From: a virus
Lineage: Duplodnaviria; Heunggongvirae; Uroviricota; Caudoviricetes
Virus record (IMG/VR): IMGVR_UViG_2909262264_000005
DNA length: 64,000 nucleotides
Direction: 5' to 3' (one strand)
The translations under genes were made by a program, and so were the position numbers. A model generated the notes under the pieces. It was not told the origin of the DNA. It did not search any database and worked only from the letters and a program-made list of their open reading frames with translations. Below, piece after piece: positions 48,784-51,569 of the stretch; within the stretch, counting starts at the first letter, position 1; every line of letters starts with the position of its first letter.

Positions 48784-48924
48784 TTACAACATTGAAAGCA
48801 CACCATCCAGAAAACCAAGAGCTGTTTGCAACTCTTTTCTTATTGTCCCATCAGAACACTTCTGCTTCTTTGCAATAGTTCTTAGTGAGATGCCGATAAC
48901 AAAATGAGCAATAACCAACTCATA
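48784..48924 (-). pseudogene. Antiterminator Q, 3' fragment (separated from 5' fragment by IS insertion)
   Basis: Translates YELVIAHFVIGISLRTIAKKQKCSDGTIRKELQTALGFLDGVLSML*, aligning with the C-terminus of Q at 3665-4048 (…[17 protein letters not shown]…); in frame with the 5' fragment through the duplicated TATGAG. Confidence 0.75.
48919..48924. repeat. Target-site duplication, left copy (CTCATA)
   Basis: Identical 6-mer directly flanks both ends of the IS (48919-48924 and 51564-51569). Confidence 0.7.
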
Positions 48925-49023
48925 TGCGTATTCCGCTCTATTCGATCACGGATTGGCATCGAAGTCCGATCAGCGATTCGCATACATTCGATCAACCGGG
49001 AACTTAACTTTTTCTATCGCTTT

Positions 49024-49779
49024 TTAACTCGTTTTTTCGCTGCTTTCCACTGTCGGGGGATTTTTCCTCAGGGACTCTCCCTGAAGGACCACTCTGTGTG
49101 AGTTATGTACCAGTCTGTCCAGGATGGCATCTGCTGTTGTTGGGTTTTCCATCAGACCATGCCATTTATCTACCGGGAACTGGCTTACCACTATCGTGCT
49201 GCTTTGTCCGTAACGATCCTCTATGAGCTCCAGAAGGTCATTACACTGGGCGTTACTTAACTGTTCCAGCCCCAGATCGTCCAGGATTAGAACCTGTATT
49301 TTTTGCAACTGTTTCAGATATTTCAGCCAGCTGCCATCAACACGTCCCTGAGCCAGCTGTTCCAGTAATCGCCCGGTTCTACAGTACCGGACGCTGTGTT
49401 TCTGTCGACATGCCTGTTCGCCCAGCGCATTGGCTATCCAGCTCTTGCCACATCCTGTCGGACCGGTTATCAGCAGGTTTTTCCTGTGGGTTATGTAGTG
49501 ACCGTTCAGCAGTTCTCTCATCTGTTCAGCCCGCAGACCTCTTGAGGCCGGATAGCGCAGCCCTTCCGGTGTTGCCTGGTATTTCAGGCCGGCATTTTTT
49601 CTCAACCGTGCCACACGGCTGTTTTCCCTGCTCAGAAGCTCGTCATCAACCAGCAGCGTCAGCCTTTCCTCGAACGACAGTTCGTCGTAGGTCTGAGGCG
49701 TTTCCCGCTGCCGTATCAGGCTCCCGGCCATCGCCGGGAGTTTCAGTTGGGTCAGTTTGTTTAACAGGTTATCACTCAT
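49024..49779 (-). CDS. istB: IS21-family helper ATPase IstB
   Basis: Identical to 275-1030. Confidence 0.9.
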   Translation of the reverse strand: MSDNLLNKLTQLKLPAMAGSLIRQRETPQTYDELSFEERLTLLVDDELLSRENSRVARLRKNAGLKYQATPEGLRYPASRGLRAEQMRELLNGHYITHRKNLLITGPTGCGKSWIANALGEQACRQKHSVRYCRTGRLLEQLAQGRVDGSWLKYLKQLQKIQVLILDDLGLEQLSNAQCNDLLELIEDRYGQSSTIVVSQFPVDKWHGLMENPTTADAILDRLVHNSHRVVLQGESLRKNPPTVESSEKTS

Positions 49780-49795
49780 ACTGTTGTTCCTTCTG

Positions 49796-51361
49796 TCAGT
49801 GGTAGTAGCCCGGACCACGCAGGTTTTCATGCTCTGAAGCATATGTCGGATGTTGTTCGCCCTGGCGGGATAATGGAAGCTCCAGGTTCTCCCGATGGTG
49901 ACGCAGCAGATTGTCGATAAAGCGTCTGTCAGGGGCGTTATAGTGCAGGGCAACGTAACAGGCCTTTTCCAGTCGTTCCGGGCCGTATTTTTTCTGAAGT
50001 GCCAGCAGCCCCAGAACTGCACGATAAGCCAGTTCCGGATGGGGTTTTGCCTTCAGCATGGATTCAACCACCCGGCCTGTGGACGGGCCCGTACGTTTCC
50101 CCTGCTCGATCAGGCGTTCCGGTGTCCATGTCCCGTGCTGCCGGTGGCGCTCTGGCATGTGAAGCGGATTGGTTGTGTGTTTATATTCATGTGTGCTGCG
50201 CGGATGTTGCGCCACACACTGCCCCTTGTGCCAGAGTTGTACCACAGACTGCCCCGCCTTCAGTGACAGACGCTGACCGACCAGTTCGTGTGGAACGGAG
50301 TACCAGTGACGGGCATATTCAACGTGATAGTCAGGGCCAACCTTCACGGCTTTGTATTCCGTGTATTCATAAGGTGCCAGAGGCAGCGGAGAGAGTGCTG
50401 GCGCATCCAGCATGCGGAAGCGTTCTGCACGGGTTTGATTGCCGTACCCCTTCATTGGCCGGTTATTCATGTCCGTCAGTAACTCCCGAAGGCGCGCATT
50501 CAGCGCCCTGAGCGTGTGGAAGGTTTCATTACGGATGCGGGCAAGAAGCCATCGTTCGACGATGAGGACGCCGTTTTCTGCTTTTGGTTTATCTTTAGGT
50601 TTGCGCGGGCGGGCCGGGATAATAACCGTGCCATAGTGCTCAGCCAGCGCCTGATAACTGTCGTTGATGACAGGCTCATAGCGATCGGCTTTTTTGACTG
50701 CACTTTTGAGATTATCGGGGATGAGCAGCTTCGGCACGCCGCCCAGGAAGGTCAGGCAACGGCTGTGGGCATTTAACCATGACATCATGTCCTGACCTTC
50801 GCACGCTTCAACGTAGGTATAGTTGGATGCCCCCATCACGGCCACGAAGATTGCCACGCGGCGTATCTCTCCGGTGTCCGGATTAATAACAGGAACCGTA
50901 GGACCGCAGAAGTCGATAAAGAGCTTTTCGCCGGCACGATGCTCCTGGCGCATGGAGAGGCGTCGCGTTTTTTTCCACTCCCGGTAGCAACGGCAGAAGT
51001 GCGAGTATCCCATCGCTTTGTCACTCGCCTGTGCCTTGTATTCCATCCACAACAGCTGGCGCGTCACGCCCGGTTTTCTCATTTCCGTATCGAAGTACAG
51101 CATGTCAGGCATAACAAGCTCTGACGCAGAGGTGTCTTTGGGCGGGTAAATGAGTTTCTCCAGCGTGTCATGGGATATATCAGCAGGTAATGGCCATGAC
51201 AGAGAAGAGGCTTTGAAGCGTGCAAGAACCTCAAAAACGGTTGAGGCGCTGATGTGTAACGTCAGTCCGATACAACGGTTAGTCAGCTTCTGGTCGAACT
51301 TGAGCTGAAGGATCTTAAAACAGGTTTCCATAGTGCTCCTGGATTTTCTCTTTCTGGACAT
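49796..51361 (-). CDS. istA: IS21-family transposase IstA
   Basis: N-terminal HTH region, DDE-type core (…LFIDFCG…DNLKS…); start at MSRKRK (RBS GGAG) or 30 nt downstream at METCF (RBS AGGAG), uncertain. Confidence 0.85.
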   Translation of the reverse strand: MSRKRKSRSTMETCFKILQLKFDQKLTNRCIGLTLHISASTVFEVLARFKASSLSWPLPADISHDTLEKLIYPPKDTSASELVMPDMLYFDTEMRKPGVTRQLLWMEYKAQASDKAMGYSHFCRCYREWKKTRRLSMRQEHRAGEKLFIDFCGPTVPVINPDTGEIRRVAIFVAVMGASNYTYVEACEGQDMMSWLNAHSRCLTFLGGVPKLLIPDNLKSAVKKADRYEPVINDSYQALAEHYGTVIIPARPRKPKDKPKAENGVLIVERWLLARIRNETFHTLRALNARLRELLTDMNNRPMKGYGNQTRAERFRMLDAPALSPLPLAPYEYTEYKAVKVGPDYHVEYARHWYSVPHELVGQRLSLKAGQSVVQLWHKGQCVAQHPRSTHEYKHTTNPLHMPERHRQHGTWTPERLIEQGKRTGPSTGRVVESMLKAKPHPELAYRAVLGLLALQKKYGPERLEKACYVALHYNAPDRRFIDNLLRHHRENLELPLSRQGEQHPTYASEHENLRGPGYYH

Positions 51362-51563
51362 TGCCGTCTCCACTGGTTTAAACACGGCAATGAAGACTGT
51401 GGTGAAAAGAGTTAATTCCCGGAGTGACTGGCAGGATGCCAATCAATGATCGGAAGCATGCCAAATCGTGATCGATTGTGATGCCAAACTGTGATCGGAG
51501 ATGGATGCCAAATCATGATCGATTCGAATGCCAAACCGTGATCGATTTAGATGCCATTTTGCA

Positions 51564-51569
51564 CTCATA
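51564..51569. repeat. Target-site duplication, right copy (CTCATA)
   Basis: See left copy. Confidence 0.7.

What the first reader, a model, noticed from the sequence alone, without database searches (positions are those of the whole stretch)
48919..51569. Complete IS21-family element inserted into the Q antiterminator gene with a 6-bp target duplication
Q is cleanly split: the 5' fragment (51564-51785) and 3' fragment (48784-48924) are in frame across the duplicated CTCATA/TATGAG and together reconstruct a ~120-aa Q like that of prophage A. The IS (2639 bp) carries intact istA and istB and terminal repeat arrays. Consequence by inference: prophage B keeps intact-looking lysis, head and tail genes but has lost its late-gene antiterminator, so it is probably non-inducible while its lysogen-expressed cargo (cassette, lom, methyltransferases) is retained. 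The IS ends 150 bp from the cassette.
Basis: seen in the sequence. Interest (0 to 1): 0.6.

Follow-up and report, generated by a model that had tools for sequence, protein, structure and literature searches.

The report
IS21-family element splitting prophage Q gene
A known mobile element (an ISSso4-type IS21-family insertion sequence) has recently jumped into the late-gene switch (Q antiterminator) of an otherwise intact lambda-like prophage; this is a well-documented but ordinary way for a bacterium to cripple a resident virus.

Summary
Window 48925-51563 is a complete 2639-bp IS21-family element of ISSso4 type. It has intact istA (511 aa) and istB (251 aa), TG...CA ends and arrays of ~20-bp terminal repeats. 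It is flanked by a 6-bp duplication, CTCATA. Removing the IS and one repeat restores a 113-aa Q21-family antiterminator. That protein is 100% identical to Q of the phage record mEp460_4F5, and the restored DNA is 100% identical over 1256 bp to the uninterrupted site in E. coli MB06171. None of 5426 complete E. coli genomes has the IS at this site. Every other prophage gene is full-length, so the insertion is recent and strain-specific. Losing Q should block late transcription (lysis, virions), not induction itself. A neighbouring tandem prophage carries an intact Q of the same family (46% identity) and a homologous late promoter/terminator, so rescue in trans is not excluded. A second, identical IS copy at window 1-1129 interrupts that neighbour's late-operon methyltransferase. 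Novelty and interest are low.

The parts
48919..48924 (.). Left copy of the 6-bp target-site duplication CTCATA (minus strand TATGAG = Q codons 68-69, Tyr-Glu)
   Evidence: a single copy is present in the empty site of E. coli MB06171
48925..51563 (-). Complete IS21-family insertion sequence (ISSso4 type), 2639 bp, ends 5'-TG...CA-3', 52.8% GC
   Evidence: It is 98-99% identical to full-length copies in E. coli; 301 records in 225 genomes hold at least 80% of it
49024..49779 (-). istB, helper AAA+ ATPase, 251 aa, with Walker A (GPTGCGKS, residue 106) and Walker B (LILDD, residue 164)
   Evidence: PF01695 205.8 bits; NF038214 257.8 bits against a cutoff of 200
49796..51331 (-). istA, DDE transposase, 511 aa
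   Evidence: NF033546 transpos_IS21 289 bits against a cutoff of 160; Pfam rve + Mu-transpos_C_2; same length as the annotated intact copy in GPEC1222, 4 aa differences
51435..51563 (.). istA-proximal end: five ~20-bp direct repeats GATGCCAAAnnnTGATCG (starts 51435, 51458, 51480, 51504, 51527) plus a terminal partial copy. These are presumed IstA binding sites
   Evidence: families D1, D2; inverted pairs I1, I2, I5-I7
48925..48983 (.). istB-proximal end: terminal inverted repeat plus two inverted copies of the same ~20-bp repeat (48942-48960, 48963-48983)
   Evidence: I1, I2, I5-I7
51564..51569 (.). Right copy of the 6-bp target-site duplication CTCATA
51513..51770 (-). 5' fragment of Q: codons 1-69 (51770-51564) reading on into the IS end for 16 foreign codons to a stop at 51513-51515. 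The predicted 85-aa truncated product lacks the C-terminal HTH-like segment
   Evidence: start codon as annotated for WP_001205460.1
48784..48924 (-). 3' fragment of Q: duplicated codons 68-69, then codons 70-113 and the stop
   Evidence: 100% identical to bases 202-342 of the MB06171 Q gene
48760..48779 (.). GC-rich hairpin (AGGGGGG-ATTA-CCCCCCT) between the stop codons of Q and the convergent 182-aa cassette gene; terminator-like
47165..47260 (-). Predicted late promoter PR' (-10-like TATTAT near 47232-47227), short leader and terminator tR' (hairpin 47185-47173 plus T-run). This is the site where Q would act
   Evidence: The region is homologous to the one annotated Promoter/Terminator directly after Q in Stx phage phi345, and is conserved 82-84% in 382 phage records
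1..1129 (+). Second copy of the same IS (istB-side 1129 bp, cut by the window edge). It is 100% identical and inverted relative to the first copy, and it interrupts prophage A's late-operon DNA methyltransferase (remnant 1130-1578, minus strand)
3665..4048 (-). Intact Q of the tandem prophage A (127 aa), same Pfam family, 46% identical to the reconstructed Q. Candidate for complementation in trans

Best explanation
A recent, simple transposition put an ISSso4-type IS21-family element between codons 69 and 70 of the Q late-gene antiterminator of an mEp460-like lambdoid prophage integrated at ssrA. Codons 68-69 (TATGAG) were duplicated.

Shown here:
- the complete IS anatomy;
- the 6-bp duplication, checked against an empty site;
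- in-frame reconstruction of a Q identical to that encoded in a phage genome record;
- all other prophage genes intact;
- the insertion is absent from every comparable genome searched;
- a second 100%-identical IS copy lies 48 kb away.

Inferred:
- The truncated 85-aa product lacks the sigma-region-4-like HTH segment and is inactive.
- After SOS induction the early programme (derepression, excision, replication) still runs.
- RNA polymerase starting at PR' (~47230, minus strand) stops at tR' (47185-47165) and at later terminators, so the holin/endolysin and head/tail genes are not expressed.
- The prophage therefore cannot lyse the cell or make particles by itself, while genes with their own promoters (cassette, lom, methyltransferases, PD-T4-3, R-M) stay in place.
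For: IS anatomy and family membership.

Empty site:
- 100% identity over the 1256-bp joined sequence in E. coli MB06171.
- 217 complete genomes hold at least 80% of the joined flanks, most of them as one uninterrupted piece; 0 of 5426 hold the IS here.
- The Q allele is present at >=99% identity in 216 genomes, and 487 of the 489 genomes with any match hold at least 80% of it in one place.

Prophage integrity:
- The whole prophage is collinear with MB06171 at 99.75-99.98% identity, and the IS is the only discontinuity.
- 52 of 54 reference CDS are full-length with no internal stop. The exceptions are Q, which is the only one interrupted, and the tail fibre, which is a single open frame with two indels.

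Q identity:
- PF06530 at 153.9 bits.
- Similarity to the structurally solved Q21, E = 3e-4.
- 100% protein identity to Q of phage mEp460_4F5, whose head-tail, nin-Q and Q-methyltransferase modules match the window at 96-99%.
- ECF-sigma profile matches cover residues 45-102 (Pfam) and 43-106 (NCBIfam), so the cut at residue 69/70 removes the part aligned to the sigma region-4 end of those models. The Q21 fold is sigma-R4-like (Yin et al., doi 10.1101/651190).

Late promoter and mechanism:
- The PR'-tR' homologue lies downstream of the cassette.
- Without Q, transcription from PR' terminates and late genes are silent (same paper).

Recency:
- The two IS copies are 100% identical over 1129 bp.
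- An independent copy in E. coli GPEC1222 also has a 6-bp duplication.
Against: No expression or induction data exist, so every functional step is inference from the lambdoid paradigm.
- The tR' hairpin is short (4-5 bp stem, about -7 kcal/mol), so basal read-through could be appreciable.
- Prophage A carries an intact Q of the same family and a PR' region 62/80 identical, which could restore late transcription in trans.
- Defective lambdoid prophages in polylysogens are known to be rescued by co-resident prophages (PMC2669165).
- The source strain could not be found in any collection, so the junctions could not be confirmed in an independent assembly.
Confidence: 0.85

Rival explanations
1. 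The insertion is real but has little phenotypic effect. Prophage A's intact Q (3665-4048) recognises prophage B's PR'/Q-binding region when both prophages are SOS-induced. Prophage B would then still express late genes, lyse the cell and be packaged.
For: - Both Q proteins match PF06530 strongly and are 46% identical and 69% similar with no gaps. The motif CSDG-I-K-LQ-A-G in the C-terminal HTH-like segment is conserved.
- The promoter-to-terminator core is 62/80 identical, with perfectly conserved blocks such as GTTAAGAGTGGT.
- Across phages this PR' core stays 82-84% identical while the paired Q proteins fall below 60% identity in 385 of 402 records, so the DNA site is more conserved than the protein.
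- Inter-prophage complementation is documented in E. coli O157 Sakai (PMC2669165).
Against: - Lambdoid Q proteins are generally specific for their own Q-binding element (established knowledge; describes base-specific contacts).
- The -35/-10 segment upstream of the conserved core differs between A and B.
- Prophage A's own late operon is interrupted by the second IS copy, and its lytic competence is unknown because most of it lies outside the window.
- No experiment bears on this.
Confidence: 0.25
2. The arrangement is not a simple transposition. It would be either the product of recombination or inversion between the two inverted IS copies, or an assembly artefact caused by a repeated IS.
For: Two 100%-identical inverted copies lie 48 kb apart. 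Repeats of 2.6 kb are a classic cause of misassembly and of inversions.
Against: - Both flanks of the copy in Q are contiguous with each other in the empty site and carry a perfect 6-bp duplication. An inversion or a mis-join would separate the two Q halves and break the duplication.
- The prophage on both sides is collinear with MB06171.
Confidence: 0.02
3. Q is dispensable here because prophage B has another late-gene antiterminator, for example the adjacent DUF968 protein (51788-52777), which one annotation pipeline names 'Phage antitermination protein Q'.
For: The deposited annotation of mEp460_4F5 labels the DUF968 homologue 'Phage antitermination protein Q'.
Against: - The protein matches DUF968 and an HNH-nuclease model. 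It matches no Q-family model in Pfam and nothing in NCBIfam.
- PGAP names it a DUF968 domain-containing protein and lists only one antiterminator in the prophage.
- tblastn with both Q proteins finds no further copy in the window.
- The label looks like annotation carry-over.
Confidence: 0.03

Closest known systems
ISSso4 (IS21 family; the NCBI name for the IstB of near-identical copies in E. coli and Shigella)
   Same: - 98-99% nucleotide identity over the full 2639 bp to copies annotated 'IS21 family transposase' plus 'IS21-like element ISSso4 family helper ATPase IstB'.
- Same gene order and protein lengths, same TG...CA ends and repeat arrays.
- 6-bp duplication also seen in an independent copy.
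   Different: - At least 1% diverged from every copy in 5426 complete E. coli genomes (best match 99.0%).
- The GPEC1222 copy has one extra 23-bp terminal repeat unit, giving 2662 bp.
- The ISfinder reference sequence itself was not available for comparison.
IS21 (prototype of the family, plasmid R68.45)
   Same: - Two-gene istA/istB organisation: a DDE transposase plus an AAA+ helper.
- Multiple terminal repeats that serve as transposase binding sites.
- Short target duplication (established knowledge of the family; family HMMs met).
   Different: This element is longer (2639 bp; IstA 511 aa), and its duplication is 6 bp. IS21's commonly cited values of about 2.1 kb, a shorter IstA and a 4-bp duplication are from memory and were not tested here.
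Q of phage 21 / the Q21-Q933W family (Pfam PF06530; PDB 6P18, 6JNX)
   Same: - Same Pfam family and detectable sequence similarity to Q21 (E = 3e-4).
- Similarity to sigma region 4.
- Gene position after the nin region and before PR'-tR'-lysis genes.
- PR' region homologous to that of Stx phages.
   Different: - Shorter (113 aa against 162 aa for Q21) and only distantly similar to it.
- A 1.5-kb antisense two-gene cassette separates Q from PR', whereas in Stx phage phi345 the promoter overlaps the end of Q.
Phage mEp460_4F5 (LR595868.1) and the ssrA prophage of E. coli MB06171
   Same: - The mEp460 Q protein is 100% identical to the reconstructed Q. Its head-tail, nin-Q and Q-methyltransferase modules are 96-99% identical to the window.
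- The MB06171 prophage is 99.75-99.98% identical and collinear over about 45 kb.
   Different: - Neither carries the IS.
- mEp460 has different immunity, integrase and lysis modules.
IS-disrupted, defective lambdoid prophages of E. coli (for example the O157 Sakai prophage pool)
   Same: Lambdoid prophages that carry disrupted or missing genes are predicted in silico to be defective, while their cargo genes are retained (PMC2669165).
   Different: Here only one gene is hit and everything else is intact, so this is an earliest-stage defect. The Sakai study also shows that such predictions can fail because of complementation between prophages.

Membership tests
IS21 family insertion sequence | istA encodes a DDE transposase that matches the family model | tested here: met
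   NF033546 transpos_IS21 289 bits (cutoff 160), residues 9-317. Pfam rve 32.6 bits (exactly at the cutoff) and Mu-transpos_C_2 72.1 bits. 511 aa, open, same length as the annotated intact copy in GPEC1222.
IS21 family insertion sequence | istB encodes an AAA+ helper ATPase with Walker A and B motifs | tested here: met
   NF038214 IS21_help_AAA 257.8 bits (cutoff 200); PF01695 205.8 bits; GPTGCGKS at residue 106 and LILDD at residue 164.
IS21 family insertion sequence | istA directly upstream of istB on the same strand, closely spaced | tested here: met
   The istA stop codon is at 49796-49798 and the istB start is at 49779, both on the minus strand, with a 16-bp gap.
IS21 family insertion sequence | Terminal inverted repeats ending 5'-TG...CA-3', with multiple internal repeat copies at both ends | tested here: met
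   Ends are TGCGTATTCC... and ...CCATTTTGCA. Five full ~20-bp repeats plus a terminal partial copy lie at the istA end and two at the istB end, in inverted relation.
IS21 family insertion sequence | Short direct target duplication (4-8 bp) created on insertion | tested here: met
   CTCATA is present on both sides but only once in the empty site of MB06171. An independent copy is flanked by ATGTAA/ATGTAA.
IS21 family insertion sequence | Transposition activity | not testable with these tools
   Indirect only: two copies 100% identical over 1129 bp lie in the same 64-kb window, and both genes are intact.
ISSso4 (named element) | High nucleotide identity to the ISfinder reference sequence | not tested
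   The ISfinder reference was not available. The indirect evidence is 98-99% identity to E. coli copies whose IstB NCBI names 'ISSso4 family'.
Q21/Q933W-type antiterminator (Pfam PF06530) | Match of the reconstructed protein to the family model over its full length | tested here: met
   PF06530 153.9 bits (cutoff 26), residues 1-113 on profile positions 1-113 of 118; phrog_79 'anti-termination protein Q-like'.
Q21/Q933W-type antiterminator (Pfam PF06530) | Relationship to the structurally characterised Q21, including the sigma-region-4-like DNA-binding module | tested here: inconclusive
   phmmer E = 3e-4 to 6P18/6JNX over residues 8-86. Sigma70_ECF 22.4 bits (cutoff 21.1) over residues 45-102. 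No structure was predicted or compared.
Q21/Q933W-type antiterminator (Pfam PF06530) | Genomic position upstream of a promoter plus terminator that precede the lysis and morphogenesis genes | tested here: met
   Gene order on the minus strand is nin/DUF968 - Q - (antisense cassette) - PR'/tR' homologue 47260-47165 - methyltransferase - essD/rrrD/Rz - terminase.
Q21/Q933W-type antiterminator (Pfam PF06530) | Antitermination activity at its own PR' | not testable with these tools
   Indirect only: the identical protein is the only Q-family gene in the genome record of phage mEp460_4F5.

The most novel reading that the evidence does not exclude
The same IS has hit both tandem ssrA prophages inside the short Q-to-lysis interval: Q in prophage B, and the first large late-operon gene in prophage A. 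This might not be coincidence. It could reflect either a target preference of this IS for that region or selection for locking down both prophages while keeping their defence and cargo genes (PD-T4-3, a type II R-M system, the unknown cassette, a porin). On that reading the pair would be a snapshot of IS-driven prophage domestication, with two inverted identical copies also poised to invert the 48-kb segment between them.
Probability: 0.07. Interest if true: 0.4.

Novelty: already known. Interest (0 to 1): 0.15.

Why it matters
The finding adds a precisely documented, very recent example of a single-hit prophage knockout. Every gene but one is intact, and an exact empty-site reference is available. 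This is useful for annotation: the two Q fragments should be marked as one pseudogene and the IS as ISSso4-like. It also warns against predicting that this strain releases prophage-B particles.

It does not reveal a new mechanism. The only open biological question is whether a 46%-identical Q from the neighbouring prophage can act at this late promoter. That is a routine reporter experiment.

Tried and rejected
- I searched for the source strain, or any other genome with the same junction, using exact patterns for both junctions against 185,579 species-representative genomes. There were 0 hits. This is expected if the source is not the E. coli representative.
- I looked up the exact Q'-IS fusion ORF (85 aa and 90 aa versions) and the 44-aa 3' fragment in the 153-billion-gene collection. 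None is on record.
- I searched complete E. coli genomes with the IS plus its flanks. No record covers at least 80% of it. The insertion is therefore a singleton in the data searched.
- I tried to take the phage 21 Q-binding-element sequence from Yin et al. so that I could locate the Q-binding site in PR'(B) and PR'(A). The sequences are only in the figures, which are not held. Cross-specificity could therefore not be judged at base level.
- I considered that ISApl1 in E. coli SA186 might be a second, independent hit in Q. It lies in the 182-aa cassette gene, and Q is intact there.
- I considered an outward hybrid promoter at the IS end (TTTGCA-17-TATATT, 51558-51586, plus strand). It is a 9/12 match, and the region has no more promoter-like sites than its shuffles do (10 found against 10.6 expected), so I dropped it.
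- I considered a 7-bp duplication, as suggested by the BLAST overlap. I rejected it in favour of 6 bp because of the TG...CA termini and the independent ATGTAA case.
- ARAGORN finds no tmRNA in the window. The window holds only the 3' end of ssrA, at about 16269.
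Full report
**1. What is in the sequence**

The hexamer CTCATA occurs at 48919-48924 and again at 51564-51569. The 2639 bp between the two copies (48925-51563) begin TGCGTATTCC and end CCATTTTGCA.

On the minus strand the segment holds two open genes:
- istA, 49796-51331, 511 aa.
- istB, 49024-49779, 251 aa, starting 16 bp after the istA stop.

IstA scores 289 bits on NCBIfam's IS21-family transposase model (cutoff 160). It also carries Pfam rve and Mu-transposase C-terminal domains. 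IstB scores 257.8 bits on the IS21 helper-ATPase model (cutoff 200) and 205.8 bits on PF01695. Its Walker A (GPTGCGKS) and Walker B (LILDD) motifs are present.

The istA-proximal end carries five ~20-bp direct repeats (GATGCCAAAnnnTGATCG) plus a terminal partial copy. The istB-proximal end carries two copies in inverted relation. This is the family's typical multi-repeat end architecture.

**2. Which element it is**

The element is 98-99% identical over its whole length to many E. coli chromosomal and plasmid copies. In those copies NCBI names the genes 'IS21 family transposase' and 'IS21-like element ISSso4 family helper ATPase IstB'. A total of 301 records in 225 of 5426 complete genomes hold at least 80% of it, with up to 33 places per genome.

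The proteins here differ from those of the closest copy (GPEC1222) by four residues each and have the same lengths. That copy is flanked by ATGTAA on both sides inside an EAL-domain gene, so a 6-bp duplication is the norm for this element. The element is therefore a complete copy of a known IS.

**3. It is a simple insertion into Q**

On the minus strand, 51770->51564 is exactly 69 codons ending ...Glu-Glu-Tyr-Glu. The stretch 48924->48784 repeats Tyr-Glu and continues to a stop. Joining them with one repeat removed gives an open 113-aa frame.

The joined 1256-bp flanks match E. coli MB06171 at 100% as one uninterrupted piece. There the gene is annotated 'antiterminator Q family protein', WP_001205460.1, 113 aa.

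The population picture is as follows:
- 217 complete E. coli genomes hold at least 80% of the joined flanks, most of them as one uninterrupted piece.
- None holds the IS at this position.
- The Q allele is present at >=99% identity in 216 genomes, and 487 of the 489 genomes with any match hold at least 80% of it in one place.
- Exact searches for the junctions and for the fusion ORFs in the other collections found nothing.

The insertion is real, polymorphic, and so far unique to the source strain.

**4. The gene that was hit**

The reconstructed protein matches Pfam PF06530 (Phage_antitermQ) end to end at 153.9 bits. It is distantly similar to the structurally solved Q of phage 21 (E = 3e-4 to 6P18/6JNX). 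It also gives a weak ECF-sigma match over residues 45-102. The last point fits the published finding that Q21 has a sigma-region-4-like fold and binds DNA through an HTH-like motif (doi 10.1101/651190).

The protein is 100% identical to the Q of phage mEp460_4F5. That phage's head-tail module (95.9%), nin-Q module (95.9%) and Q-to-methyltransferase segment (99.1%) match the window.

The IS cuts between residues 69 and 70. The 5' fragment reads on for 16 foreign codons, giving an 85-aa product without the C-terminal HTH-like segment. Loss of function is the obvious inference, but it has not been shown.

**5. The rest of the prophage**

Prophage B is collinear with the ssrA-integrated prophage of MB06171 at 99.98% identity (early side) and 99.75% (late side). 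The IS is the only break.

Of the 54 CDS annotated in that reference, 52 are full-length in the window with no internal stop and at most two amino-acid changes. The tail-fibre gene carries two indels over the same total length and is still a single open reading frame here (21040-24444). Only Q is interrupted. No second Q-family gene exists in prophage B.

The adjacent DUF968/HNH gene is called 'Phage antitermination protein Q' in the deposited mEp460 annotation. It matches no Q model, so I treat that name as carry-over.

**6. Where Q would act**

A convergent, 30.7%-GC two-gene cassette lies between Q and the late operon (47310-48771). Just beyond it, on the minus strand, 47260-47165 contains a -10-like TATTAT, a short leader, and a hairpin followed by seven T.

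The core of this segment is conserved at 82-84% in 382 phage records, essentially the same set of phages that carry this Q family. In Stx phage phi345 it is annotated Promoter and Terminator directly after Q. I therefore take it as PR'-tR'.

By the established lambdoid mechanism, polymerase from PR' terminates unless Q loads on it. Without Q the holin, endolysin, Rz, terminase, head and tail genes downstream should stay silent.

**7.

Q acts after induction. The LexA-like repressor, integrase and replication/nin genes are intact. The expected phenotype is therefore inducible but abortive: no lysis and no particles. 'Non-inducible' is not the right description.

The window also holds a second lambdoid prophage (A) in tandem at the same ssrA site. 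Homology to MB06171 ends at 16269, inside the 3' end of ssrA, next to A's integrase. Prophage A has an intact 127-aa Q of the same family, 46% identical to B's. Its PR'-tR' core is 62/80 identical to B's, with long perfectly conserved blocks.

Rescue in trans on co-induction cannot be excluded. Complementation among co-resident defective lambdoid prophages is documented (PMC2669165). I give this rival about 0.25.

**8. A second copy of the IS**

Window 1-1129 is 100% identical to the istB-side 1129 bp of the element, in inverted orientation and cut by the window edge. It interrupts prophage A's late-operon DNA methyltransferase after about 149 codons. An IS-free relative has the full 348-aa gene.

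Two identical copies argue for recent activity of the IS in this genome. Recombination between them did not create the Q disruption, because both Q flanks and the duplication are native.

Both prophages being hit between Q and the lysis genes may be coincidence. I record the domestication or target-preference reading as the most novel one not excluded, at low probability.

**9. Verdict**

The element is a known IS, the target is a known kind of gene, and IS inactivation of prophage genes is commonplace. Novelty: already known. Interest: 0.15.

Noticed in passing
window 1-1129 (+), with the remnant gene at 1130-1578 (-): A second copy of the same IS, 100% identical over 1129 bp, inverted and cut by the window start. 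It interrupts prophage A's late-operon DNA methyltransferase after about 149 codons; an IS-free relative (NZ_LR882997.1) has the full 348-aa gene. The two inverted identical copies lie 48 kb apart and could mediate an inversion.
   Followed up: partly
window 14937-16269: Prophages A and B sit in tandem at ssrA. Homology to the MB06171 prophage region ends at 16269, inside the 3' end of the tmRNA gene, directly next to prophage A's integrase (14937-16136). ARAGORN finds no complete tmRNA in the window.
   Followed up: partly
window 47310-48771 (+): A two-gene cassette (308 aa, plus a 182-aa protein that looks hydrophobic by eye) at 30.7% GC. It is antisense to the phage genes and lies between Q and PR'. 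It has no Pfam or PADLOC match, and only the 308-aa protein matches a PHROG of unknown function (phrog_2802). Prophage A carries an ompC-like porin (2378-3475) in the equivalent slot. In E. coli SA186 the 182-aa gene is cut by ISApl1.
   Followed up: partly
window 16524-20386: A defence cluster at the att-proximal end of prophage B: a type II restriction endonuclease (16524-17738), a cytosine methyltransferase (17773-19248) and a GIY-YIG protein (19613-20386) that matches PADLOC PD-T4-3 at E = 7e-139.
   Followed up: partly
window 51788-52777 (-): The DUF968/HNH-like gene directly upstream of Q is labelled 'Phage antitermination protein Q' in the deposited annotation of phage mEp460_4F5. It matches no Q-family model, so this is probably an annotation error that could mislead a search for a spare Q.
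   Followed up: yes
window 47165-47260 (-) and 1925-2200 (-): The late promoter/terminator cores of the two prophages are homologous (62/80 identical). The same core is conserved at 82-84% in 382 phage records, including Stx phages, while the paired Q proteins fall below 60% identity in most of them. The DNA site looks more conserved than the protein that reads it.
   Followed up: partly
window 21040-24438 (-): The tail-fibre gene is the most diverged gene relative to the MB06171 prophage: 97.85% identity against >=99.7% for every other gene compared, with two indels over the same total length. It is still a single open reading frame.
   Followed up: no
L003 (E. coli GPEC1222, NZ_CM142784.1) locus 1501-4162: The closest E. 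coli copy of the IS is 2662 bp because it has one extra 23-bp terminal repeat unit at the istA end. The number of terminal repeats therefore varies between copies.
   Followed up: no
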